Assembly (NCBI GenBank): GCA_951406725.2
Contig: OX597824.1
Location: forward strand, 71,176,001-71,240,000
Reading direction: 5' to 3'
DNA length: 64,000 bases
Source of the DNA: Octopus vulgaris
Taxonomy: Eukaryota
Part shown: in pieces, positions 5,650-60,642 of the stretch
Numbering within the stretch: the stretch's first letter is position 1
Layout of the letters: each line of letters starts with the position of its first letter
Program-made: the position numbers and the translations under genes
The notes under the pieces: model-generated
The model's database searches: none
Seen by the model: only the letters and a program-made list of their open reading frames with translations
What the model was told of the DNA's origin: nothing

Positions 5650-6790
5650 GTTTCTTTATTGGCCACACAGGGCTGCACACAGATGGGACAAGTTACAAGG
5701 TAGAGCTTTTCTTTTGGGGGATGAAGAGAACAAAAAACAAAAGAAAATAAAGGGGTGGCGTAGGTTTTCGATCAAGAGGGATCGTAAAAGGAAGAAAAGA
5801 ACAAAAACAAAAAAAAAATTGAATAAAATAAAAAGAATAAAAAGAAAAAAAAAGGAAAGGAAAAGGAACAAAAGGAAAGAGAAATGAAAAAAGAAGAAAA
5901 AAGGGGAAAAAAAGGGAAGAGGAAAAAAAGAACGATCAATAGGGATCGTGTATCACAGTGTTATGATATATGGTGTAAAGGGGAAAGCAAGTAAGGTTTA
6001 TCCGTGGGAAGAAAAGCCTACGAAAAAGACCACGGTAACCTTGGTCAATATTGTTATATGTTACCACATTTGTTTGCAAGTGGGTAACCCTCTGTTTTCA
6101 ATTTCTGGGTTCATAGGATTACGTCATTCATACGTGCCATCCTTGCTACATTCACCCATCTTTTTTTAAAACATTCGCTAGACAAAACTTGCCTCTCTAC
6201 TCTCACTTTCCTTTTCAAGTGGTACTTGAAGAAGTTGATGAGAGATTGACCAGAGAGGAAAGTGTTTGTCTCCAATCCTTTCAGACGCGTCCACCAGATA
6301 CATTCTTTCGCCATAGCCACAAGGATGATGAAAATAGCTCTTCCTTCCCGTTTGAAGGAAGGAGGCGTGACAATATTGACGATAGACTCAGCTGATAAAC
6401 CGACTCGTCCCACACGTGACAGCAGTTGTTCGACATAAGCCCACAGGTCGGAAATTGTTGGACACTGCACGAGTGCGTGCAGAGCGGTTTCGTCGCTCTG
6501 ACACATCTCGGGCAGGTCGGCCCCGTGTTTCTCGAGCCGTGTCTGTAGAGCTTATCCCGAACGGGTAGCGCTTCTCGGTAGCACTGCCAGGCCAGGGATC
6601 TCTGGAAGTTGTCCATGGGCCCTGGCCCGAAAGTCGTCCTGAACAGGCGGGTCAGGTACTCCTCGTCGACGTCCAGGTTCGCCCCGAGCTCGTCGTCGTA
6701 CCTCCCCTCCACTAATCCCCTATAGAATGCTTTGGTTGTGTTGAAGTCACTCAAGGTCGACCCGGGACGGCAGAGTTGCTTGAGAGCAAG
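5650..6790 (-). mobile_element. 3' fragment of a Tx1/L1-type LINE (zf-RVT region and 3' UTR), set in (GATA)n
   Basis: Frameshifted ORF pieces WQCYREALPVRDKL...CPRC and ETALHALVQCP...LW. Related tails at about 46845-47140 (+) and 50140-50390 (-). Confidence 0.8.
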
Positions 6791-6804
6791 ATAGATAGAT
6801 GATG

Positions 6805-6891
<87 letters not shown>

Positions 6892-6907
6892 GGATGATGG
6901 ATAGATG

Positions 6908-6993
<86 letters not shown>

Positions 6994-7802
6994 AATACAC
7001 AGGTATATCAAATACCACACAACATAAATTCTTGATTCATTAAAATTTTCTCCGCCTCTAGAGAAGCATCATAATTACCAAATAACAGTTGTGAACAGTT
7101 TCATATAAGAACGGCAGATAATGTCAAGAATCAAGAATTTTCCTAAGTTGATATGCCATTAAAGAAAAGGACAGGCATACTGTCTCTGTCTGGAGATAAG
7201 AGAACAGCTGTGGACACATGTCTTTTGCCTGAATAAGTGTCAACACAACGAACGTGATAACTTATTCCCAGTAGCCAATGGAATACACTAACTGCTTAGG
7301 AAGATGCCATAAATTAAACAAACGGAACGAACTGAGAGAAATAATTCAGTGGCCAGTGGCATGTATTTTTTTAACTTTTCATCTTTTATGCCTCAGTCAT
7401 TAGACTGCGGCCGTTCTGGGGTACGGCATTGAAGGATTTTTTTTTTTGTCGAATGAATCGACTCCATTAGGTATTTTTTTTTAAACCAGTGAAACACTGG
7501 GGTCGATGTGATCGACTATCTCCCTCTCCCGAAAATTTCAGGCCTTGTGCCTTTAATAGAAAATATTATTAAGGTGGCGAGCTTGCAGCATCGTTAGCAC
7601 GCCAAGCAAAATGCATAGCGGTATTTCGTCCATCTTTACGTTCTGAGTTCAAATTCCGCCGAAGTCGTCTTTGCCTTTCATCCTTTCGTGGTCGATAAAT
7701 TAAGTACTGGTGAAGCACTGGGGTCGATGTAATCAACTAGTCCCCCTCACTCAAATTTCAGGCCTTGTGCCTTTAATAGAAAGAATAATAATAATAATAA
7801 TA

Positions 7803-7868: not shown

Positions 7869-8577
7869 TAGTTTTATTTTTATAGCGTGCTTTCACTTCA
7901 CTACCGAGCGCAGCTCTGTGTGCCTTGGGTATGTGCTGTGATTTGTTGTGATGCTCTGATGGTTATTGTATGGAAAGTGTTCTGCGTAGGATGTGTGCAG
8001 TGCCTAGTAGTGCAATTTTCTGTATGTTATATGTGTTTGTAAGTCCTGGTGTTTTTGTTATGTATTTGTCTGAATATTTTTTTATCATGCCTAATGCACC
8101 TACTATGATAGGAATTGTTTCTGTTTTCAGATTCCACATTCTAGTTACCTCTATTTCCAGGTCTTTGTATTTTGAGAGTTTCTCCATTTCTTTTAGAGAC
8201 ACGTTGTCATCAGCCGGTATTGATACATCAATTAGAAAGCATTTTTTTCTTCATGATCTCTGACAACTATATCTGGTCTGTTGGCCTTAATTTCTCTATC
8301 TGTGTGTATCGGCATATCCCAGAGTATGGTTGCTTTCTCGTTTTCTGTGACCTTTTCTGGTGTGTGTCTATACCATCTTTTTTCTGTTGTTATTCCATAA
8401 TGTTGGCATAGCTTCCAATGTATGTAGGTTCCAACTCTGTCATGTCTGTGAATATATTCCTTCTTAGCCAGGACTGGGCAGCTAGAGATAATATGATTTA
8501 TTGTTTCTTGTCCATCTCCACATATTCTGCAGTTACTTGTAATATTTCTTTTCATTACATGTTTTTGGTAATTTCTG
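7866..8577 (-). mobile_element. 5'-truncated R4/Dong-type (restriction-like endonuclease) LINE inserted in (TAA)n
   Basis: CRIC...ETINHIISSC...YIHRHD zinc knuckle, ILWD..IHTD....NRPDIVV, EKLSKYKDL, IPIIVGALG. (TTA)n on both flanks. Confidence 0.88.
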
Positions 8578-8593
8578 ATTATTATTATTATTA

Positions 8594-8661
<68 letters not shown>

Positions 8662-9427
8662 AATACATTCACAATCGTGAGGTCGTGGTTTCAATTCCTA
8701 GTCCGGGTGGTGAGGTGTGTTTTTGAACAAAACACTTCATCTCACGTTGCTCTGCGATCACATCGACACCTGATGCGAGGTACACTGTGCACCTGTTGAA
8801 GCAACGTCGAATTGGTGGCGAGAGTGAGCTAATGTGCGCCACACACATTTAATCACTGTAAACAAACCATTTGTGTAGGTCGTTCGGCAAAAGTTGAACG
8901 CTCATACATCGTCTTCGACGAGAGAGTCCATCATTATTATTGTTGTTGTTGTTGTTGTTATTATTACATTTGTTTTTTGAGTTGAATGAAAAACTTCGAG
9001 CGGGTTCTGCGGAGAAACTGGATTTACCACGCATTTATTCTAAGAGAAAAAGAAAATTCATTTGGATAGTCTTCCCCCGTGGGAAACTTTCGACTTTTCA
9101 ATGTCGCCTTCAGCCTACTTTCTAGTGGAAAAAAAATAGCATTTGGCTTCGGTATTTTACGTTTCATGTTTAATAATAATTTCTCTCAATTCAATTTTCA
9201 ACATGGCTCCGTGATGTTGAAAGGAGCGAAAAGAGCTGTTCGTCATACAATGCTTGTAGTACAAAAATAAACAGATACGCCCCTCAGATACAAACAGATA
9301 TAAAACATATTAACACAGATTTAACAAAAAAAAAATGAGGCAGAAAAGAAAAATAAGAAAATCAATCCAATACCGAACAAAAATAGAAATAAATCATTTT
9401 AACAGTGTTTCTTGAAGTGGATACAAC

Positions 9428-9459: not shown

Positions 9460-10091
9460 AGCAGTATCGCCCGGCGTTGCTCGGGTTTGTAAGGGAAATA
9501 ACTATATAAGCATTTTTAGAGAGTTATAGCCAAAAAATAGCAAAAAATGCATTAAAAATGGAAAAAATATGATGGTAAATTTTTTTTTAAATCGTTGACT
9601 CATCGTAGACATTTTTAGAGAGTTACTTCCCTTATATAATAGCGAAAAAATGCATTAAAATGGAAAAAAAACGATGGTAAATTTGTTTTTAAATCGTAGA
9701 CTCATGTAGACGCTTTCTTAGCCATTTCTGTTTTGGTGTCTTCAAGCCATGAAGTCGTTCTAAAAGAACGCTGGTCTCCTTGACAACGCATTACGACGTT
9801 GATTTCCTTACACTCCCTTCCCCACAGGTGCAGGTGTGAGCGTGGACGCCAACTCCGCCGCCATCGACACACGAAAAATTATGCATTAAAATGGAATAAA
9901 AAATGATGTTAAATTATTTTTAAAATCGTAGACTCATCGTAGACGCGCGCTAATATTCAGATGGGCTCGATATGAATCACGACTATAAGCTACCCGAATT
10001 TGGTTAAACTGCACCGCAAAATGTGGGAGTAGTTAGGAATCTAAATCGAAGGGGACAGACACTCACACAACTACAGTTTTATATATATAGA
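9458..10091 (-). mobile_element. Non-autonomous Helitron, copy 1
   Basis: The minus strand starts A|TCTATATAT and ends CCCGAGCAACGCCGGG (hairpin) CGATACTG CTAG|T, giving the 5'-TC, 3' hairpin-CTAG and AT target hallmarks. Confidence 0.8.
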
Positions 10092-11345: not shown

Positions 11346-11981
11346 CTAGCAGTATCGCCCGGCGTTGCTCGGGTTTGTAAGGGAAATAACTATATAAGCA
11401 TTTTTAGAGAGTTATAGCCAAAAAATAGCAAAAAATGCATTAAAAATGGAAAAAATATGATGGTAAATTTTTTTTAAATCGTTGACTCATCGTAGACATT
11501 TTTAGAGAGTTACTTCCCTTATATAATAGCGAAAAAATGCATTAAAATGGAAAAAAAACGATGGTAAATTTTTTTTTAAATCGTAGACTCATGTAGACGC
11601 TTTCTTAGCCATTTCTGTTTTGGTGTCTTCAAGCCATGAAGTCGTTGTTCTAAAAGAACACTGGTCTCCTTGACAACGCATTACGACGTTGATTTCCTTA
11701 CACTCCCTTCCCCACAGGTGCAGGTGTGAGCGTGGACGCCAACTCCGCCGCCATCGACACACGAAAAATTATGCATTAAAATGGAATAAAAAATGATGTT
11801 AAATTATTTTTAAAATCGTAGACTCATCGTAGACGCGCGCTAATATTCAGACGGGCTCGATATGAATCACGACTATAAGCTACCCGAATTTGGCTAAACT
11901 GCACCGCAAAATGTGGGAGTAGTTAGGAATCTAAATCGAAGGGGACAGACACTCACACAACTACAGTTTTATATATATAGA
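11346..11981 (-). mobile_element. Non-autonomous Helitron, copy 2
   Basis: Near-identical to 9458-10091 with the same termini. Confidence 0.8.
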
Positions 11982-15442: not shown

Positions 15443-15488
15443 GACACCTGATGAAAGCTGGAGGGTATATCAGCTGAAACGTTGTGTT
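15443..15488 (+). ncRNA. Minimal type I hammerhead ribozyme motif in a short repeat next to (AAT)n
   Basis: GACAC CTGATGA A AGCTG gagggtatat CAGCT GAAAC GTT GTGTT: canonical core plus an extra A, 5-bp stem II, palindromic AACGTT stem III (dimer-dependent), stem I GACAC/GTGTT. Confidence 0.7.
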
Positions 15489-18866: not shown

Positions 18867-19086
18867 TGTATGTGTGTATGTATGTATATATATATATATA
18901 TATATCGTGACGTATATTTGCCACCTAAATGTGGCTGACCCATATGGGACGATGCTACTGTTGTTTATAGCCCCAAGAAGATATATGTCATATATTATAT
19001 TAGGTATACGTACATAGTATATACATACGGACATACAGACACATACATATATATTCACATATATACATATTTACATACATACACAC

Positions 19087-19117
<31 letters not shown>

Positions 19118-19241
19118 CACACATACACATATGTATGTGAACACACACATGTATTTATGTGGGCGAGTCTTCATAACTTAGAATGCTAAGACCTCAAAGA
19201 TATCATCACTACTTTCTTCTTTCTTTTCTCCTCTTTCTGTT

Positions 19242-19289
<48 letters not shown>

Positions 19290-19667
19290 CTATATACATG
19301 CATACATACATGAACACACATACATGTGTGTCTGCGTGCGCGTGCGTGCGTGTGTGTGTAATTCCTGTCCTCTACATACAAGCTTGTCCCTTCAAGAGCC
19401 GGTGCCACATAAAAAGCACTTGTGCTGGTGCTGCTTCAGTGCACCCCGTGCCGGTGGCACGTAAAAAGTATCCAGCACCCTCTGTTAAGTGGTTGGCGTT
19501 AGGAAGGGCATCCAGCCGTAGAAGCCATGTCATGACAGACAATTGAAGTCTGGAAAGCTCCCACGTGGCCAGCTTCATGTCAAACCGTCCAATCCGTGCC
19601 GGCATAGAAAATGGGTGATCGTCATGATTATATATGCACACACACGCGCATAAACACGCGCATACAC

Positions 19668-19716
<49 letters not shown>

Positions 19717-20394
19717 TACATACATACATACATACATACATACATACATACATACATACATACATACATACTTGCATGCATACATACATACATACATACA
19801 TACATACATACATACATACATACTTGCATGCATACATACATACATACATACATACATACATACATACATACATACATACATACTTGCATGCATACATACA
19901 TACATACATACATACATACATACATACATACATACATACATACATACATACATTGTTTTAGTCATTTACTGGTTTCGCTCAAACTGAGACAAAATCTTCA
20001 GTAAAAAAGAGAAAAGCGAACTCCACCAGCACGAAAAGAAAAACTGCATCTGGGGAAAAATAAATTACCACAAGATATTTTTGTTCGACGCACTGATTCT
20101 TCATCCTGATATGCATGTTTAGTTTAAATAAATGATATACACATCATCGTACATTGAGTACTCTTTCTCCTTCCTCTGACAAATTGTAACGTTTAGGGGG
20201 ACGTGGAAGAATCGTTAACGCGTCGGACGAAATACTTAGCGGCACTTCTTTCAGCTCTTTACGTTATAAGTTCAAATTCTGCTGAGTTAGACTTTGACTT
20301 TCATCTTCTCGAGGTCGACAAAATAACGTACTAATGAAGTATTGAGGTCAATGTAACTGACTTGCCCCTTCTCAGAATTTGAAATGTTTATTAC

Positions 20395-20428
<34 letters not shown>

Positions 20429-20577
20429 ATCATCATCATCATTATTATTATTGTTATTATTATTGTTATTATTATTGTTGTTATTATTGTGGTTATTATT
20501 GTTGTTGTTCTTGTTGTTCTTGTTGTTCTTGTTGTTCTTGTTATTATTACTATTACTATTACTATTACTATTAATAT

Positions 20578-20662
<85 letters not shown>

Positions 20663-21317
20663 TTATTTTTATTATTCCCTACACTATCACTATGATTATG
20701 GCGCCGCCTCCCGATGTTATCGATCCCACTACTGATGCTGAGCCGCCGCAGTATTATTAGAACGAATCTCAAGAATCTTCTTCTTCTTCTTCTTCTTCTT
20801 CTTCTTCTTCTTCTTCTTCTTCTTCTTCTTCTTCTTCTTCTTCTTCTTCTCTTTCTTCTCCTTCTTCTTCTTCTTCTCCTTCTTCTTCTCCTCCTCCTTC
20901 TCCTTCTTCTTCTTCCTCTTCTCCTTCTTCTTCTTCTCCTCCTCCTCCTCCTTCTTATTTTTCTCTCCTCCTCCTTCTTTAACAACTCTCTCTCTCTCTC
21001 TCTCTTTCTCTCTTTCTCTCTCCCTCTCTCTATCTCTCTTTCTATCTATCTATCTCTATCTCTTTCTCTTTCCCCACCAGTCCTCCGTGCAGTCACATTA
21101 CGAAACAAAGACAGCTGCAACCACTCCAACAATGCAACAAATATTTTGTGTTACACAAAAATGATAAAGTAGAACCTGGGGGAAACTAGCGATTGTCTGC
21201 GTAGGCAAAGAAGAAGAGTACAAAAGGTTTATTGCTGAGAATTTCTTCTTCGTTCTCACCTTTGGTATTTCTCCACATGCCTCTGACACACCCATGATAT
21301 ATGAATGTGAATATGCA

Positions 21318-21349
<32 letters not shown>

Positions 21350-21365
21350 ACACACACACACACAC

Positions 21366-21455
<90 letters not shown>

Positions 21456-21545
21456 TATATGCATATATATATATATATATACATATATATATGCATACAT
21501 ATATATATATATATCTATACGTATATACATATATATATATATATG

Positions 21546-21600
<55 letters not shown>

Positions 21601-21827
21601 GTATATACATACATATATATATATATATATATTTATATTATATAAAAGGGCTTAGTAAAATAAATTACTTTGCCACATACTGAACTCATTAGAAATAGCA
21701 GCTAAAAAAAACTTTTTTAAAACTATTTCTAATACTTAAAGAAAATCTCTCTCATATAGTGCTTGCTCAATTCAACTCACGAAAGTATGGGGGTAAAGAC
21801 ATTAAAAAATCAAATGCAAAGGTTATT

Positions 21828-21880
21828 TGAGAACGTACGTTTCAAGATTAGTCAAACTCGACATTTCTATCATCAGCTCA
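21828..21880 (-). ncRNA. Type I hammerhead ribozyme motif, array copy 1
   Basis: Minus strand reads UGAG CUGAUGA [stem II] GAAAC GUAC GUU CUCA: stem I UGAG/CUCA, canonical core, palindromic stem III AACGUACGUU, NUH = GUU. Confidence 0.8.
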
Positions 21881-22394
21881 GAACTCCTTGGTTTGGATCT
21901 GAAAACACTGAAAGTGGGAGCATACCCTTTCGGCTTCCTATCGCTTCTGAAGATCTGCTCGAAACTAACAGTGCCAACATACCCAAAAAATGCAAGCGAA
22001 GAATTTCTGCTCTCCCCTTTCCACCAGCGTGGGTTAAAATCAGCAAACGCTAAGCTTTTTCGGTAAATCCGAAACATTAAATAGAGAGAGATGAATTATA
22101 ATTTCAACAATTGAGGGTAAAATTAATTAATTTATTATTAATCAATTTCACCAAGTGTTCAGTATGTAAAGGGACCATTTAAGGCGAATTCAAATTATTA
22201 CATTATATAAAAGGGCTTAGTAAAATAAATTACTTTGCCACATACTGAACTCATTAGAAATAGCAGCTAAAAAAAAAACTTTTTTAAAACTATTTCTAAT
22301 ACTTAAAGAAAATCTCTCTCATATAGTGCTTGCTCAATTCAACTCACGAAAGTATGGGGGTAAAGACATTAAAAAATCAAATGCAAAGGTTATT

Positions 22395-22447
22395 TGAGAA
22401 CGTACGTTTCAAGATTAGTCAAACTCGACATTTCTATCATCAGCTCA
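22395..22447 (-). ncRNA. Type I hammerhead ribozyme motif, array copy 2
   Basis: Same sequence as copy 1, 567 bp away. Confidence 0.8.
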
Positions 22448-22955
22448 GAACTCCTTGGTTTGGATCTGAAAACACTGAAAGTGGGAGCATACCCTTTCGG
22501 CTTCCTATCGCTTCTGAAGATCTGCTCGAAACTAACAGTGCCAACATACCCAAAAAATGCAAGCGAAGAATTTCTGCTCTCCTTTCCACCAGCGTGGGTT
22601 AAAATCAGCAAACGCTAAGCTTTTTCGGTAAATCCGAAACATTAAATAGAGAGAGATGAATTATAATTTCAACAATTGAGGGTAAAATTAATTAATTTAT
22701 TATTAATCAATTTCACCAAGTGTTCAGTATGTAAAGGGACCATTTAAGGCGAATTCAAATTATTACATTATATAAAAGGGCTTAGTAAAATAAATTACTT
22801 TGCCACATACTGAACTCATTAGAAATAGCAGCTAAAAAAACTTTTTAAAACTATTTCTAATACTTAAAGAAAATCTCTCTCATATAGTGCTTGCTCAATT
22901 CAACTCACGAAAGTATGGGGGTAAAGACATTAAAAAATCAAATGCAAAGGTTATT

Positions 22956-23008
22956 TGAGAACGTACGTTTCAAGATTAGTCAAACTCGACATTTCTATCA
23001 TCAGCTCA
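22956..23008 (-). ncRNA. Type I hammerhead ribozyme motif, array copy 3
   Basis: Same sequence as copy 1, 561 bp from copy 2. Confidence 0.8.
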
Positions 23009-23754
23009 GAACTCCTTGGTTTGGATCTGAAAACACTGAAAGTGGGAGCATACCCTTTCGGCTTCCTATCGCTTCTGAAGATCTGCTCGAAACTAACAGT
23101 GCCAACATACCCAAAAAATGCAAGCGAAGAATTCCTGCTCTCCCCTTTCCACCAGCGTGGGTTAAAATCAGCAAACGCTAAGCTTTTTCGGTAAATCCGA
23201 AACATTAAATAGAGAGAGATGAATTATAATTTCAACAATTGAGGGTAAAATTAATTAATTTATTATTAATCAATTTACCCCCATACTTTCGTGAGTTGAA
23301 TTGAGCAAGCACTATATGAGAGAGATTTTCTTTAAGTATTAGAAATAGTTTTAAAAAAGTTTTTTTAGCTGCTATTTCTAATGAGTTCAGTATGTGGCAA
23401 AGTAATTTATTTTACTAAGCCCTTTTATATAATGTAATAATTTGAATTCGCCTTAAATGGTCCCTTTACATACTGAACACTTGGTGAAATTGATTAATAA
23501 TAAATTAATTAATTTTACCCTCAATTGTTGAAATTATAATTCATCTCTCTCTATTTAATGTTTCGGATTTACCGAAAAAGCTTAGCGTTTGCTGATTTTA
23601 ACCCACGCTGGTGGAAAGGGGAGAGCAGAAATTCTTCGCTTGCATTTTTTGGGTATGTTGGCACTGTTAGTTTCGAGCAGATCTTCAGAAGCGATAGGAA
23701 GCCGAAAGGGTATGCTCCCACTTTCAGTGTTTTCAGATCCAAACCAAGGAGTTC

Positions 23755-23807
23755 TGAGCTGATGATAGAAATGTCGAGTTTGACTAATCTTGAAACGTAC
23801 GTTCTCA
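23755..23807 (+). ncRNA. Type I hammerhead ribozyme motif, array copy 4
   Basis: TGAG CTGATGA TAGAAATGTCGAGTTTGACTAATCTT GAAAC GTAC GTT CTCA; predicted cleavage after 23803. Confidence 0.82.
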
Positions 23808-24320
23808 AATAACCTTTGCATTTGATTTTTTAATGTCTTTACCCCCATACTTTCGTGAGTTGAATTGAGCAAGCACTATATGAGAGAGATTTTCTTTAAG
23901 TATTAGAAATAGTTTTAAAAAAGTTTTTTTTTAGCTGCTATTTCTAATGAGTTCAGTATGTGGCAAAGTAATTTATTTTACTAAGCCCTTTTATATAATG
24001 TAATAATTTGAATTCGCCTTAAATGGTCCCTTTACATACTGAACACTTGGTGAAATTGATTAATAATAAATTAATTAATTTTACCCTCAATTGTTGAAAT
24101 TATAATTCATCTCTCTCTATTTAATGTTTCGGATTTACCGAAAAAGCTTAGCGTTTGCTGATTTTAACCCACGCTGGTGGAAAGGGGAGAGCAGAAATTC
24201 TTCGCTTGCATTTTTTGGGTATGTTGGCACTGTTAGTTTCGAGCAGATCTTCAGAAGCGATAGGAAGCCGAAAGGGTATGCTCCCACTTTCAGTGTTTTC
24301 AGATCCAAACCAAGGAGTTC

Positions 24321-24373
24321 TGAGCTGATGATAGAAATGTCGAGTTTGGCTAATCTTGAAACGTACGTTCTCA
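24321..24373 (+). ncRNA. Type I hammerhead ribozyme motif, array copy 5
   Basis: As copy 4, 566 bp downstream. Its single substitution in stem II (TGAC to TGGC) keeps pairing as U-G. Predicted cleavage after 24369. Confidence 0.82.
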
Positions 24374-24813
24374 AATAACCTTTGCATTTGATTTTTTAAT
24401 GTCTTTACCCCCATACTTTCGTGGGTTGAATTGAGCAAGCACTATATGAGAGAGATTTTCTTTAAGTATTAGAAATAGTTTTAAAAAGTTTTTTTTAGCT
24501 GCTATTTCTAATGAGTTCAGTATGTGGCAAAGTAATTTATTTTACTAAGCCCTTTTATATAATGTAATAATTTGAATTCGCCTTAAATGGTCCCTTTACA
24601 TACTGAACACTTGGTGAAATTGATTAATAATAAATTAATTAATTTTACCCTCAATTGTTGAAATATATATATTTATATATATATATATATATGCATACAT
24701 ATATATATAGAGAGAGAAATGTATGTGTGTGAATGTGTGTACATGCATCTGACATGCAAAAGATATGTTAATAAACACACAAATCTTTATACATACATAC
24801 ATACATACATACA

Positions 24814-24844
<31 letters not shown>

Positions 24845-24889
24845 TTCTTTCAGAATCAATGAGCCATAGAATATTTCCAAATATTTATT

Positions 24890-24931
<42 letters not shown>

Positions 24932-26129
24932 GATTACATTGGCCTCGGTGCTCAACTGGTTTTATTTAATAGACCTCGAAAGGATAAAAGGCAAAAATTG
25001 GCAGAATTTGAACTCAGAACCGGAAGAAATATTGCTAAGTATTTTGTACTACGTGCTAACGATTCTGCCACCACGCAGCCTAAACGATGAATAGCTTTGC
25101 GTAAACCAGGCATAAACCAGTGAAAAACCGAAGTAATATAACTTATAATCTCATAATTCACTAGAAAAGTATGAGAAAGAATAAAATCAATCGTAAATTT
25201 TCATGGTGAAAATTCTGAAATAAGGCATCCTAAACAACAGATGTCTCAAATTAAAGACAGCTTTGTAAACTAAAATAAAATATGATCTTGCATTAAGTGA
25301 ATAATATTTATATGGTTTTTGTTTACTTTTTAGATATGCTTTTATTTTAAACTGCCTCTCCAACCTGACAAAAGTGTAAAATGCTTACTGTACATTTAAT
25401 AATTAGGTAAACGGTGAATTAAAAAGGGCAGCATCACAAATCCCCGTGATAGCCTTTAATTCAGGAAGTCGTCTGCACTTTAGAATCATCCTTTTCCTAC
25501 TGTTTTCCCCTGAGAGTAAATGTTTACCTTGGAGCATTTCAATGAAACTATAACATTCTTGTGATGTACTCATTTGACCATCGTTGATATTGCCATCGTT
25601 GATATAACCGTCTGCTTACTTTAGCCATTTTAATTTTTCTATTTATACTTTGTAAATTTCTCTTTTGACATGAAAAGAAAAATAAACCAAAATACTTTTT
25701 TGATTTTATCAATTTTTTTTTTCCTTATTTTCTCTAAAGTTTAGCTGCACTTGAAAATCTTAGCACTTGTTGAAATCACTGTTTAAGCATTCGTAAGGAA
25801 CGTAGAGATAACTTAAGCTCTCTTCCCGAATGTCTGTCCACAATGAATCCTTTTTACGTGAGTGTATTCACACTCAAACATACAAACACACACAAAAATG
25901 CACTCATATACACATTGAGCGTTGTGAGAGACAGCCAGGTATTTATTAGCTAACAACGTATAATCCACTGGAATATGTGATTCACGACTCAAAATAAAAC
26001 AATAAAGAAAAAAGAAAATGATTAAAAGAAAAACGAATCGTTTTATGAAGACAAACACTATATTTGCCTTTGATGTTTAGGTAAATATCCGTACTAGAAA
26101 CACATAGCAATGTTGTTGCTTGCTCAAAC

Positions 26130-26771
26130 AGATGTATCGCATCTCTTATTTATTTTACTTCAGTGTTGGGGAATTCAGCGTGCCCTAAATATGAGAATAT
26201 GCGACTGTAAGCCAAAGACCACAAACTAGAAGGATACTTTCTCTTGGTATTCGAGATAATCCTAGACCTGTTGGAATATCTTGACTGTCGATATTTTTTC
26301 GTTCAAAATTTTGGAGATTTGCAAAACTACATTTTTGAAATCTTCAGAGCACAGAAAATTCAAAATTAAATATGATATTTGCATATATAGCTGCTTGGTC
26401 GCCATTTACCTTTTCAAAATGGCCACTATAAGAAACAAAATTTGTCCTATCTCGGTTTCTAGTCAACATAGAAATTTAACTAAATAAGCTAATATTATAT
26501 TTCCTGGGAAATAAAAAAAAAAACACTACTTGCATCTTTAGACTTCTAGTTTTAACACTTCACTTTCAGAACTTTTTATTTTTCCAGAGTCAAGCGGTAA
26601 CAAGGCGTATATACGCCACTGATTGATAAAACTCTTCTAAACTTTTCATTCGATGTTTATTCTGTGTTTCCAAAGACAAGATATCTACTCATATTCCCGA
26701 AGCTGAAAAGTGTTTCGAAAACTTGGTGTGAACATTAGGATGGGAAAATATCTGCTGCGATAAATGAGAAA

Positions 26772-26848
<77 letters not shown>

Positions 26849-28154
26849 GGGCAGAACACGCACGCGAACAATTAAATAGGACGATGAAGATTCAGGCTTG
26901 GTAAATAAGCATTTTCCATGACACATCAGTAGAGGCTACGTATGAGAACAATTAAGCAGGATCATGAAGATACACTCTAGGCTAATTTTATATTTTCTAA
27001 TGCCTACGCGCGACAGCGGTACTTGATGGCCATATCAGAGATGTCACGCTTCTCACGGGGATTTAAAATTTATTTGTCACCACTGTTCATAAACCACAAG
27101 GACACCATGAAGGATAATCAGGTAGTCAAGAAAGAGTAAGATGCTGTCAACAAGATCAAGTTAGCCAGAGTGAGTCACGGAAATTCCTTTGCTGTAAGAG
27201 GTCATCGGCTTTGCAACTGAACGTGGGCAGAAAGACCACGTTTGCGTACTCTTTCTGGCCACTTTCTGTATGAAGAGTACTTTTTTTAATGTAATAGTGA
27301 TAATGTTAGTTTGTTGACGGCATTCATAAAGCAGAACAATGCCATATTCTACTCAGGAGAAACAGTAACAAACAGACAAGATCAGTGTCCATCTGTGAGT
27401 CTGAAAGAAACAAAAGAATTTTATAATTGGCTTATAGTCAATCAGATCAAACTGAGACACCGATAAGAAGAATACCTTCGGGAGCAGCGAGTTTACATTG
27501 GTTCCACCTGAAGCATTGTTTGCCAATTCTTTCATGTGCTAACGAATCGAGCCTCATACGTTGCCTAGGAAAAATACAATGAAACTTTTCAGAATGTAAA
27601 AGCACCAACATCTGAAAAATAAGAAACATCGTCAGCCCTCTGAAAGTCCAAAACTTGCCGTTGTAGATGAAATGGTGTTTGTCTAATAGATGGCAAAGAA
27701 ACCTGGAACAATGAACACAGTCACTAATTTTGGCCAACAATGACGGACTCCAGGTGTTGACAGCACATTTCAATTACGTTAGTTGACTCATTTTACGTTG
27801 AAACAGAAAACAATGAAGAAACAAGTACGAGATTGCTGAAGGCACAAACCTTAAAAGCATATCTATGGGATGCTTCTATCATATGAAAACAGGAACACCG
27901 ATCTAAGTGAATAGCTTGCACAATCGGTACTCAAAAATAATGCAAATATCCAGAAGCTGTCATCAGACCAGCATCAGACAGTCAAGGAAGAAATGGCGAC
28001 ATGAAGTTTGAGGATAGCAGCCATGAAGAGGCTGAAACGTTGATGACAACTGCATCGCATTGCTGTCTTGAGGTAGGGGTGGTTTTCTTTGGTCTAGATA
28101 TCGATATCTTGGTTCCCGTTGTTGCACACTACGACGATCTCTTTAAACACACTG

Positions 28155-35205: not shown

Positions 35206-60642
<25,437 letters not shown>

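What the first reader, a model, noticed from the sequence alone, without database searches (positions are those of the whole stretch)
21637..24664. Five hammerhead ribozymes in a young tandem-plus-inverted array of a 566-bp unit: candidate cephalopod retrozyme / circular RNA system
Seen: a near-identical ~566-bp unit is repeated about 2.9 times, flips at a TTT microhomology (23274-23276), then repeats about 2.5 times inverted, all inside (TA)n. Each full unit carries a type I hammerhead (UGAG-CUGAUGA-stemII-GAAAC-GUAC-GUU-CUCA) with a palindromic stem III (AACGUACGUU). The unit has no convincing ORF but has internal inverted repeats (ATTAGAAATAG/CTATTTCTAAT, GTTCAGTATGT/ACATACTGAAC). Established: Penelope-like elements carry minimal type I hammerheads that work as dimers via palindromic stem III and insert as tandem or inverted pseudo-LTRs. 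Non-LTR retrozymes in some animals are tandem hammerhead repeats processed into circular RNAs. Inference: read-through transcripts would self-cleave (e.g. after 23803 and 24369) into 566-nt structured monomers that could circularise and be mobilised by a Penelope RT. I do not know of such a family described from octopus.
Basis: partly seen in the sequence, partly recalled or inferred. Interest (0 to 1): 0.88.

Follow-up and report, generated by a model that had tools for sequence, protein, structure and literature searches.

The report
Octopus ribozyme repeat, Penelope-style insertion
This is one young copy of a common octopus jumping repeat: a 566-base non-coding unit carrying a predicted self-cutting (hammerhead) RNA, inserted with the marks of Penelope-like retrotransposons and likely copied by their enzyme, possibly from a circular RNA.

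Summary
Observation confirmed to the base: 2.9 units on the minus strand, a TTT flip, 2.46 units on the plus strand, five hammerhead motifs, (TA)n at both ends. The neighbouring chitinase matches Octopus vulgaris at 100%. The unit belongs to a dispersed family (1,544 motif matches against 17 in the control) with four sister families, 52-69% identical. Across them helices I and II covary and the core is kept; helix III stays palindromic while its sequence changes. The ribozyme fold is therefore selected, although Rfam misses it. Insertions end at two fixed points about 100 nt apart; 35 of 43 inverted insertions have one end of each kind and none has two alike. That is the Penelope 'tail', known to mark two reverse-transcription start sites. 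Young autonomous Penelope-like elements with the same (TA)n target exist in the genome, but none examined shares sequence with the unit. Insertions run through the cleavage site, so the template was a circle or an uncut multimer; which one is untested. This family's core is weakened (U·U at the base of helix II, U17). Verdict: a real non-autonomous Penelope-like element of the animal retrozyme kind, not found in print for cephalopods. Cleavage, expression and circles are unshown.

The parts
21637..23276 (-). Left arm: 2.9 head-to-tail units, 3' end at the short (tail-less) end point, unit position ~196, running into (TA)n
23274..24664 (+). Right arm: 2.46 units, 3' end at the long end point (position ~297, with the ~100-nt tail), running into (TA)n
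23274..23276 (.). TTT microhomology joining the 5' ends of the two arms (unit positions ~250 and ~35)
21369..21636 (.). (TA)n target microsatellite, left flank
24665..24709 (.). (TA)n target microsatellite, right flank
21828..21880 (-). Type I hammerhead motif 1 (predicted cut after 21832 on the minus strand)
   Evidence: structure by covariation
22395..22447 (-). Type I hammerhead motif 2
22956..23008 (-). Type I hammerhead motif 3
23755..23807 (+). Type I hammerhead motif 4 (predicted cut after 23803): helix I 4 bp, helix II with basal U·U and AAU/UAA internal loop, palindromic helix III, U17
24321..24373 (+). Type I hammerhead motif 5 (predicted cut after 24369; one A>G change keeps the pair as U·G)
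23804..24369 (+). One full cut-to-cut monomer, 566 nt, 34% GC, circular fold z = -6.5; reference for unit positions
23902..24104 (+). Conserved 3' structure module: hairpin 23902-23948, helix 23951-23961 with 24034-24044, hairpin 23962-23987 before the short end (23999), hairpin 24049-24085 before the long end (24100-24104); inferred RT-recognition element
   Evidence: role inferred
24000..24104 (+). The ~100-nt tail between the two end points (internal copy)

Best explanation
The array is a single recent insertion of a non-coding 566-bp repeat with a predicted hammerhead ribozyme and Penelope-type ends, likely a non-autonomous Penelope-like element (animal retrozyme) copied by a Penelope reverse transcriptase-endonuclease supplied in trans. 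Shown: dispersed family, conserved RNA structure, (TA)n target, two fixed 3' end points, one of each per inverted insertion, templates that run through the cleavage site. Inferred: read-through RNA is cut by hammerhead dimers (palindromic helix III) and likely ligated to a ~566-nt circle. The PLE protein binds the 3' structure module and nicks both strands of a (TA)n tract. One DNA end primes at unit position ~297-301 and the other at ~196, each just after a conserved hairpin. Both cDNAs run backwards for a variable number of units and their 5'-truncated ends are joined by microhomology, giving the tandem-plus-inverted array. I put the non-autonomous PLE identity at about 0.9 and the circular template at about 0.5.
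For: Family: 225 exact 24-mer matches, 1,544 vs 17 control for the looser motif, copies 83-100% identical. Five families 52-69% identical, 560-591 nt in the representatives, circular fold z -4.6 to -7.7 and much weaker on the reverse strand. Hammerhead structure on 12 sequences: 91% of cells paired, 11 of 15 pairs with changes on both sides, covariation score 0.67 vs 0.30 shuffled and 0.05-0.22 for slid controls. Helix III palindromic in all five families with four different sequences. Ends: of 66 complete insertions 43 are inverted, 35 of 43 have one short and one long end, 8 have one odd end, none two alike; 106 of 109 3' ends abut (TA)4 or more. 10 of 13 further inverted loci do the same; sister families 47 of 58. 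In a purified anole PLE the tail is the sequence between two RT start sites, and both target strands are cut and extended (PMC11167929). Only 4 of 72 arm 5' ends lie within 15 nt of the cleavage site, about what even spread gives. Units within an array mostly differ by 0-6 substitutions against 4-43 between loci. Intact 781-aa RT+GIY-YIG ORFs end in (TA)n with their own 37-nt tail.
Against: No cleavage, expression or circle data could be obtained here. Rfam finds no hammerhead in this or the sister units. The basal pair of helix II is U·U in 29 of 34 distinct family-A rows and N17 is U in 34 of 34; the active monomer fold scores -2.4 kcal/mol against -8.9 for an alternative. The further-pair-types measure does not exceed shuffles (497 of 500), the 12 rows are related, and I defined the structure from these sequences. 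No autonomous PLE sharing sequence with the unit was found. Three of 58 sister-family inverted pairs have two long ends (not inspected). Some arrays hold mixed units (L022 11, L029 6-7, L020 6 substitutions). Only 1 of 9 Xenopus retrozyme dimers cleaved in vitro (bioRxiv 10.64898/2026.07.22.740005), and hammerhead cleavage was not needed for insertion in vitro (PMC11167929).
Confidence: 0.72

Rival explanations
1. Same non-autonomous PLE, but the template is an uncut multimeric read-through RNA; the hammerhead in this family is weak or protein-dependent and no circle is used. Long arrays come from long source arrays or later unequal crossing-over.
For: Weakened core in family A. Hammerhead mutants insert normally and uncut RNA is the main substrate for the anole PLE in vitro (PMC11167929). 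Mixed units in a few arrays, 9 of 18 within-arm variants in L022 shared with other loci. Satellite-type local amplification is the route proposed by Li et al..
Against: Core, helices and palindrome are kept across families 52-69% identical. Five identical units in L047 and 13 units with mean 2.4 substitutions in L050 are simplest from one monomer read repeatedly; an uncut template would have to carry 14 intact ribozymes. The axolotl HHR_Amex2 with the same basal U·U does cleave and gives circles (PMC7229834).
Confidence: 0.2
2. The array is only the truncated 3' end (pseudo-LTR) of an autonomous PLE that I did not find.
For: Hammerheads sit in PLE pseudo-LTRs (PMC4209133) and most PLE copies are 5'-truncated. 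The PLE families of this genome were sampled only through two searches.
Against: In tandems the sequence after the tail leads straight back to the next hammerhead, leaving no room for an ORF. tblastn with the PLE ORF hit 8 of 190 and 2 of 50 loci; the 7 read by eye (5 earlier) were separate neighbouring insertions, 1 overlaps one of these and 2 weak hits were not read. All five families have closed units of 560-600 nt.
Confidence: 0.05
3. Assembly artefact or a DNA-level foldback repeat (MITE or satellite) with a chance hammerhead-like motif.
For: Inverted arrays within (TA)n are hard to assemble; this locus could not be checked against reads. Rfam has no hit.
Against: The same architecture recurs at dozens of loci with different breakpoints and flanks. 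The two termini are different sequences, not terminal inverted repeats. Folding is strand-specific and covariation follows the hammerhead fold.
Confidence: 0.03

Closest known systems
Animal non-LTR retrozymes (Cervera and de la Pena 2020, PMC7229834; passages and parts 3-4 read)
   Same: Non-coding, low-GC tandem units with one type I hammerhead each; short palindromic helix III; strongly self-paired monomer; co-occur with autonomous PLEs. The axolotl HHR_Amex2 also has U·U at the base of helix II and a 2-bp helix III.
   Different: Units 560-600 nt against ~170-400 nt in the invertebrates studied there; helix II with a conserved AAU/UAA internal loop; expression and circles shown there, untested here; here the insertion ends carry a PLE tail, which the parts I read do not describe.
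Non-LTR retrozymes as non-autonomous PLEs (Li, Clavereau, Pollet, bioRxiv 10.64898/2026.07.22.740005; parts 1-3 of 5 read)
   Same: Same conclusion on origin and mobiliser; unit sizes 51-972 bp cover this one.
   Different: Their evidence is co-occurrence and pLTR similarity, mainly in vertebrates (no hit for octopus, cephalopod, mollusc, squid). Here the evidence is the insertion signature, and no pLTR similarity was found.
[quoted passage not shown] 2021, PMC8557442, passages; Frangieh et al. 2024, PMC11167929, parts 1-2 of 4)
   Same: Partial tandems with an inverted 5'-truncated copy, a tail at one end only, (TA)n targets, hammerhead upstream of the end points, two internal RT start sites.
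   Different: No ORF; tail about 100 nt rather than 30-40 nt; start sites lie after conserved hairpins in AT-rich sequence with 2-5 nt overlap with the target, while the anole sites were reported as non-homologous to the cut DNA.
MRC1 and other non-autonomous Chlamys elements of Chlamydomonas (PMC8557442, passage)
   Same: Non-autonomous PLEs with multicopy head-to-tail insertions.
   Different: They generally resemble an autonomous family at the 3' end, and most Chlamys elements lack canonical hammerheads.
Minimal hammerheads of PLE pseudo-LTRs (Cervera and de la Pena 2014, PMC4209133; parts 1-2 and one supplement search)
   Same: Short helix I, long helix II, palindromic helix III, predicted dimer action; U3·A8 core variant seen in sister family E and in the autonomous PLE.
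   Different: Their conserved G10.1-C11.1 pair is present in sister family B but absent in this family.

Membership tests
Animal non-LTR retrozyme | Head-to-tail non-coding repeats with a type I hammerhead in each unit | tested here: met
   arrays up to 14 motifs in a row
Animal non-LTR retrozyme | Dispersed multicopy family, low GC, highly self-paired monomer | tested here: met
   1,544 motif matches; GC 34%, z -6.5, 61% paired
Animal non-LTR retrozyme | Self-cleavage at the hammerhead (monomer or dimer) | not testable with these tools
   needs in vitro transcription; core atypical
Animal non-LTR retrozyme | Expressed as monomeric circular RNA | not tested
Type I hammerhead ribozyme | Core CUGANGA...GAAA...UH with helices I, II, III | tested here: met
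   core CUGAUGA in 30 of 34 distinct family-A rows; covariation
Type I hammerhead ribozyme | Canonical G10.1-C11.1 pair closing helix II | tested here: not met
   U·U 29, A·A 3, U-A 2 of 34 in family A; G-C 34 of 34 in family B; U·U has precedent in an active axolotl ribozyme
Type I hammerhead ribozyme | Match to an Rfam hammerhead model | tested here: not met
   no hit at E<=1 in 19000-28000 or E<=10 in four sister loci
Penelope-like element insertion (EN+) | Partial tandem plus inverted 5'-truncated copy | tested here: met
   43 of 66 complete insertions inverted
Penelope-like element insertion (EN+) | Tail present at one end only (two RT start sites) | tested here: met
   35 of 43 short+long, none alike; 47 of 58 in sister families; length ~100 nt, not 30-40
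Penelope-like element insertion (EN+) | (TA)n target preference as in Neptune/Naiad clades | tested here: met
   106 of 109 3' ends
Autonomous PLE | ORF with telomerase-like RT and GIY-YIG endonuclease | tested here: not met
   none in the unit or in continuity with it
Non-autonomous derivative of a named PLE family | 3'-end sequence shared with an autonomous partner | tested here: inconclusive
   no similarity to the PLE 3' regions sampled; sampling incomplete

The most novel reading that the evidence does not exclude
Octopus carries an old, still active clan of at least five retrozyme families that circulate as ~560-600-nt circles and borrow a Penelope enzyme by RNA shape alone, with no sequence from any autonomous partner. 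A conserved multi-hairpin module sets two priming sites 100 nt apart, and both nicked strands of a (TA)n target copy the same circle by rolling-circle reverse transcription. That would give the first direct genomic footprint of how animal retrozymes insert, and a hammerhead subtype with a conserved helix II internal loop that Rfam misses.
Probability: 0.3. Interest if true: 0.75.

Novelty: new member of a known kind. Interest (0 to 1): 0.48.

Why it matters
Whether animal retrozymes are inserted by Penelope-like enzymes, and from circles, has been proposed from co-occurrence and pLTR similarity but not shown. This family offers exact start sites, a covarying recognition structure, near-identical young copies and intact candidate enzymes in one genome, so the question can be tested in vitro. 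It also adds thousands of probable ribozyme motifs to the octopus genome that Rfam does not detect. It does not change what kinds of element are known.

Tried and rejected
Rfam scans: only microsatellite-driven microRNA hits, no hammerhead. Search for an autonomous partner: 16 solitary-motif loci and 4 arrays had no ORF. GIY-YIG search gave PLE families whose 3' regions do not resemble the unit; a second abundant PLE family did not either. PLE fragments beside units were separate nested insertions. Idea that the conserved CACG motif is an snRNA-type promoter: upstream regions of 15 U2 loci show another conserved element and only a loose likeness; the neighbouring purine run pairs with the sequence after the tail; left open, leaning against. 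Idea that the two arms come from different RNA molecules: of 40 arm differences in 34 insertions only 9 had both alleles at two or more other loci; not supported, though identical molecules cannot be excluded. Classical LINE-1 twin priming: the arms overlap by 45-554 template positions, which does not fit on a monomer. A second hammerhead-like core on the opposite strand of the unit lacks helix I and was rejected. Possible splice sites upstream of helix I were not evident in sister families (by eye). Tandem Repeats Finder misses the array because its period limit is 500. No RNA or DNA read data could be laid on the locus, so expression and the exact unit count here stay open. Earlier-findings look-ups by place and by sequence were empty.

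Full report
Observation. The array spans 21637-24664 exactly as described. The left arm lies on the minus strand (1640 nt, 2.9 units), the right arm on the plus strand (1391 nt, 2.46 units), and their 5' ends share TTT at 23274-23276. Both outer ends are 3' ends of the hammerhead strand and run into (TA)n. Five hammerhead motifs are present, giving three cut-to-cut monomers that differ by 0-1 substitutions. Below, unit positions count from the base after the predicted cut (window 23804 = 1). No frame of 130 aa or more lies in the array. The nearest gene found is a GH18 chitinase, coding exons 35206-60639, whose tested exon is 100% identical to a protein named for Octopus vulgaris; the array is about 10.5 kb upstream of its start codon, and no effect on it was tested.

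Family. The genome G000 holds 225 exact matches to a 24-mer of the core and 1,544 matches to a looser motif against 17 for the reversed control. Copies are 83-100% identical to the window unit and range from fragments to 14 motifs in a row. Following weak similarities led to four sister families, B to E; the B motif alone has 514 matches against 0. One representative unit per family is 560-591 nt, 52-69% identical to the others, and folds as a circle at z -4.6 to -7.7 against 25 shuffles, with the reverse strand 29-44 kcal/mol weaker. Loci were picked as best matches or first matches on the largest contigs, so they are not a random sample.

Is the hammerhead real? Rfam does not find it, but comparison supports the fold. 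On 12 sequences from five families, 91% of cells pair, 11 of 15 pairs change on both sides, and the covariation score is 0.67 against 0.30 for shuffles and 0.05-0.22 for slid partners. The count of further pair types does not beat shuffles (497 of 500), the rows are related, one row (E) is misaligned by a column, and I drew the structure from these sequences; these limit the test. Position 7 of the core varies freely in B (U 13, A 10, G 11 of 34 rows), as in hammerheads generally (recalled). Helix II keeps an AAU/UAA-type internal loop while the pairs on both sides change. Helix III is palindromic in every family with four different sequences, and self-duplexes score -7.7 to -13.3 kcal/mol, which fits the dimer model of PMC4209133. 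Against activity: in family A the base of helix II is U·U in 29 of 34 distinct rows and N17 is U in all 34, and the active monomer fold (-2.4 kcal/mol) loses to an alternative (-8.9). The axolotl HHR_Amex2 has the same U·U and cleaves 22% as a monomer, better as a dimer (PMC7229834); but only 1 of 9 Xenopus dimers cleaved.

How it inserts. Among 100 family-A loci, 66 distinct insertions were complete in the fetched DNA; loci cut by the edge and duplicates were dropped. Of these 43 are inverted and 23 one-armed (a few of the latter are probably inverted ones split by my identity filter). 3' ends fall at two points, about 196-199 and 297-301, and 106 of 109 abut (TA)4 or more. In 35 of 43 inverted insertions one arm has the short end and the other the long end; 8 have one odd end; none has two alike. 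Ten of 13 further inverted loci (one a duplicate) agree, as do 47 of 58 in families B-E, where 3 have two long ends and 8 an odd end. This is the tail of Penelope-like elements, often present at one end only (PMC8557442). For a purified anole PLE the tail is the stretch between two internal RT start sites, and both target strands are cut and extended (PMC11167929). Here each end point follows a hairpin, and a helix brackets the short one; 6 of 31 predicted pairs in this module and 33 of 83 over the whole unit change on both sides. I infer that the module is what the enzyme recognises.

Template. Insertions run through the cut site, and arm 5' ends do not pile up there: 4 of 72 within 15 nt, about the 3.8 expected from even spread. 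A cut linear monomer therefore was not the template. The two arms of an insertion overlap by 45-554 template positions and carry the same variant; of 40 differences in 34 insertions 9 had both alleles at other loci. Units within an array are much closer than units between loci (for example 0 among five units of L047, mean 2.4 among 13 of L050, against 4-43 between loci). A circle read repeatedly explains this most simply. An uncut multimer from a homogeneous source array, or later local expansion, also can; L020, L022 and L029 hold more mixed units, and hammerhead cleavage was dispensable for the anole PLE in vitro. I rate the circle at about even odds.

Partner. The genome has many copies of a PLE with an intact 781-aa RT + GIY-YIG ORF and the CX4CxxC linker typical of Neptune/Nematis clades. 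It ends in (TA)n with or without its own 37-nt tail (19 short and 6 long ends read, some loci twice), and one inverted copy has one end of each kind. A second, abundant PLE family with open frames up to 1,200 aa also ends in (TA)n. Neither shares sequence with the unit. tblastn with the PLE ORF hit 8 of 190 and 2 of 50 unit-centred loci; the seven read by eye were separate neighbours, one overlaps one of them and two weak hits were not read. In tandems the tail leads straight back to the next hammerhead, so the unit is closed and is not a truncated autonomous element. Which PLE mobilises it is unknown.

Comparison and novelty. It works like a non-autonomous PLE, and by sequence organisation it meets the definition of an animal non-LTR retrozyme; cleavage and circles, the functional criteria, are untested. 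Retrozymes are known from a mussel (PMC7229834) and were argued to be non-autonomous PLEs in a 2026 preprint; non-autonomous tandem PLEs are known in Chlamydomonas. Searches for octopus or cephalopod with hammerhead, Penelope, ribozyme or circular RNA found no report of such a family; I saw most hits only as listings. A 2026 repeat annotation of O. vulgaris lists 31 recently active Penelope-like families and never mentions ribozymes in its main text or the one supplement held (PMC13282606); its repeat library was not available, so these units may be in it under another label. The supplements of PMC7229834 and of the preprint could not be read and may list cephalopod motifs; the library searched lacks most subscription journals and Repbase.

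Verdict. Real and well supported as a family; a new member of a known kind, with an unusually clear insertion signature that makes the retrozyme-Penelope link testable. Interest 0.48.

Noticed in passing
window 15443-15488 (+): A separate minimal hammerhead-like motif (CUGAUGA, extra A, 5-bp helix II, GAAACGUU, helix I GACAC/GUGUU), unrelated to the 566-bp unit; probably from another PLE-type repeat.
   Followed up: no
window 35206-60639 (+): Ten coding exons of a GH18 chitinase with a chitin-binding domain, matching a protein named 'acidic mammalian chitinase-like' of Octopus vulgaris.
   Followed up: partly
L071:445-5172 (+), also L074-L079, L088-L090: Young autonomous PLE with an upstream ORF, a 781-aa RT + GIY-YIG ORF, tandem repeats in the 3' UTR, a hammerhead with the U3·A8 core variant and a 37-nt tail; many identical endonuclease domains.
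   Followed up: partly
L296-L325: A second, very abundant PLE family (17,478 first-look candidates, open frames up to 1,200 aa) with a pyrimidine-rich 3' UTR, a minimal hammerhead-like motif and (TA)n ends.
   Followed up: partly
L297:3250-3570: A further sister family of the unit (72-82% to A-D over the 3' module) with the same inverted two-end form; the clan has more than five families.
   Followed up: no
L084, L058, L193, L210, L239: (TA)n tracts act as hot spots: several different PLE-type elements are nested side by side in one tract.
   Followed up: partly
L281-L295: At least 48 full-length U2 snRNA loci, some in tandem clusters, in several upstream types that mostly share an ATCAGT-containing element near -60, a likely proximal promoter element.
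   Followed up: no
window 9511-9711 and 11399-11598: Two near-identical arrays of a ~101-bp repeat about 1.9 kb apart.
   Followed up: no
window 6114-7036, 8235-8690, 38441-38911, 47257-47700 (-): Fragments of other retrotransposon ORFs (LINE-like, judged by eye from the translations).
   Followed up: no
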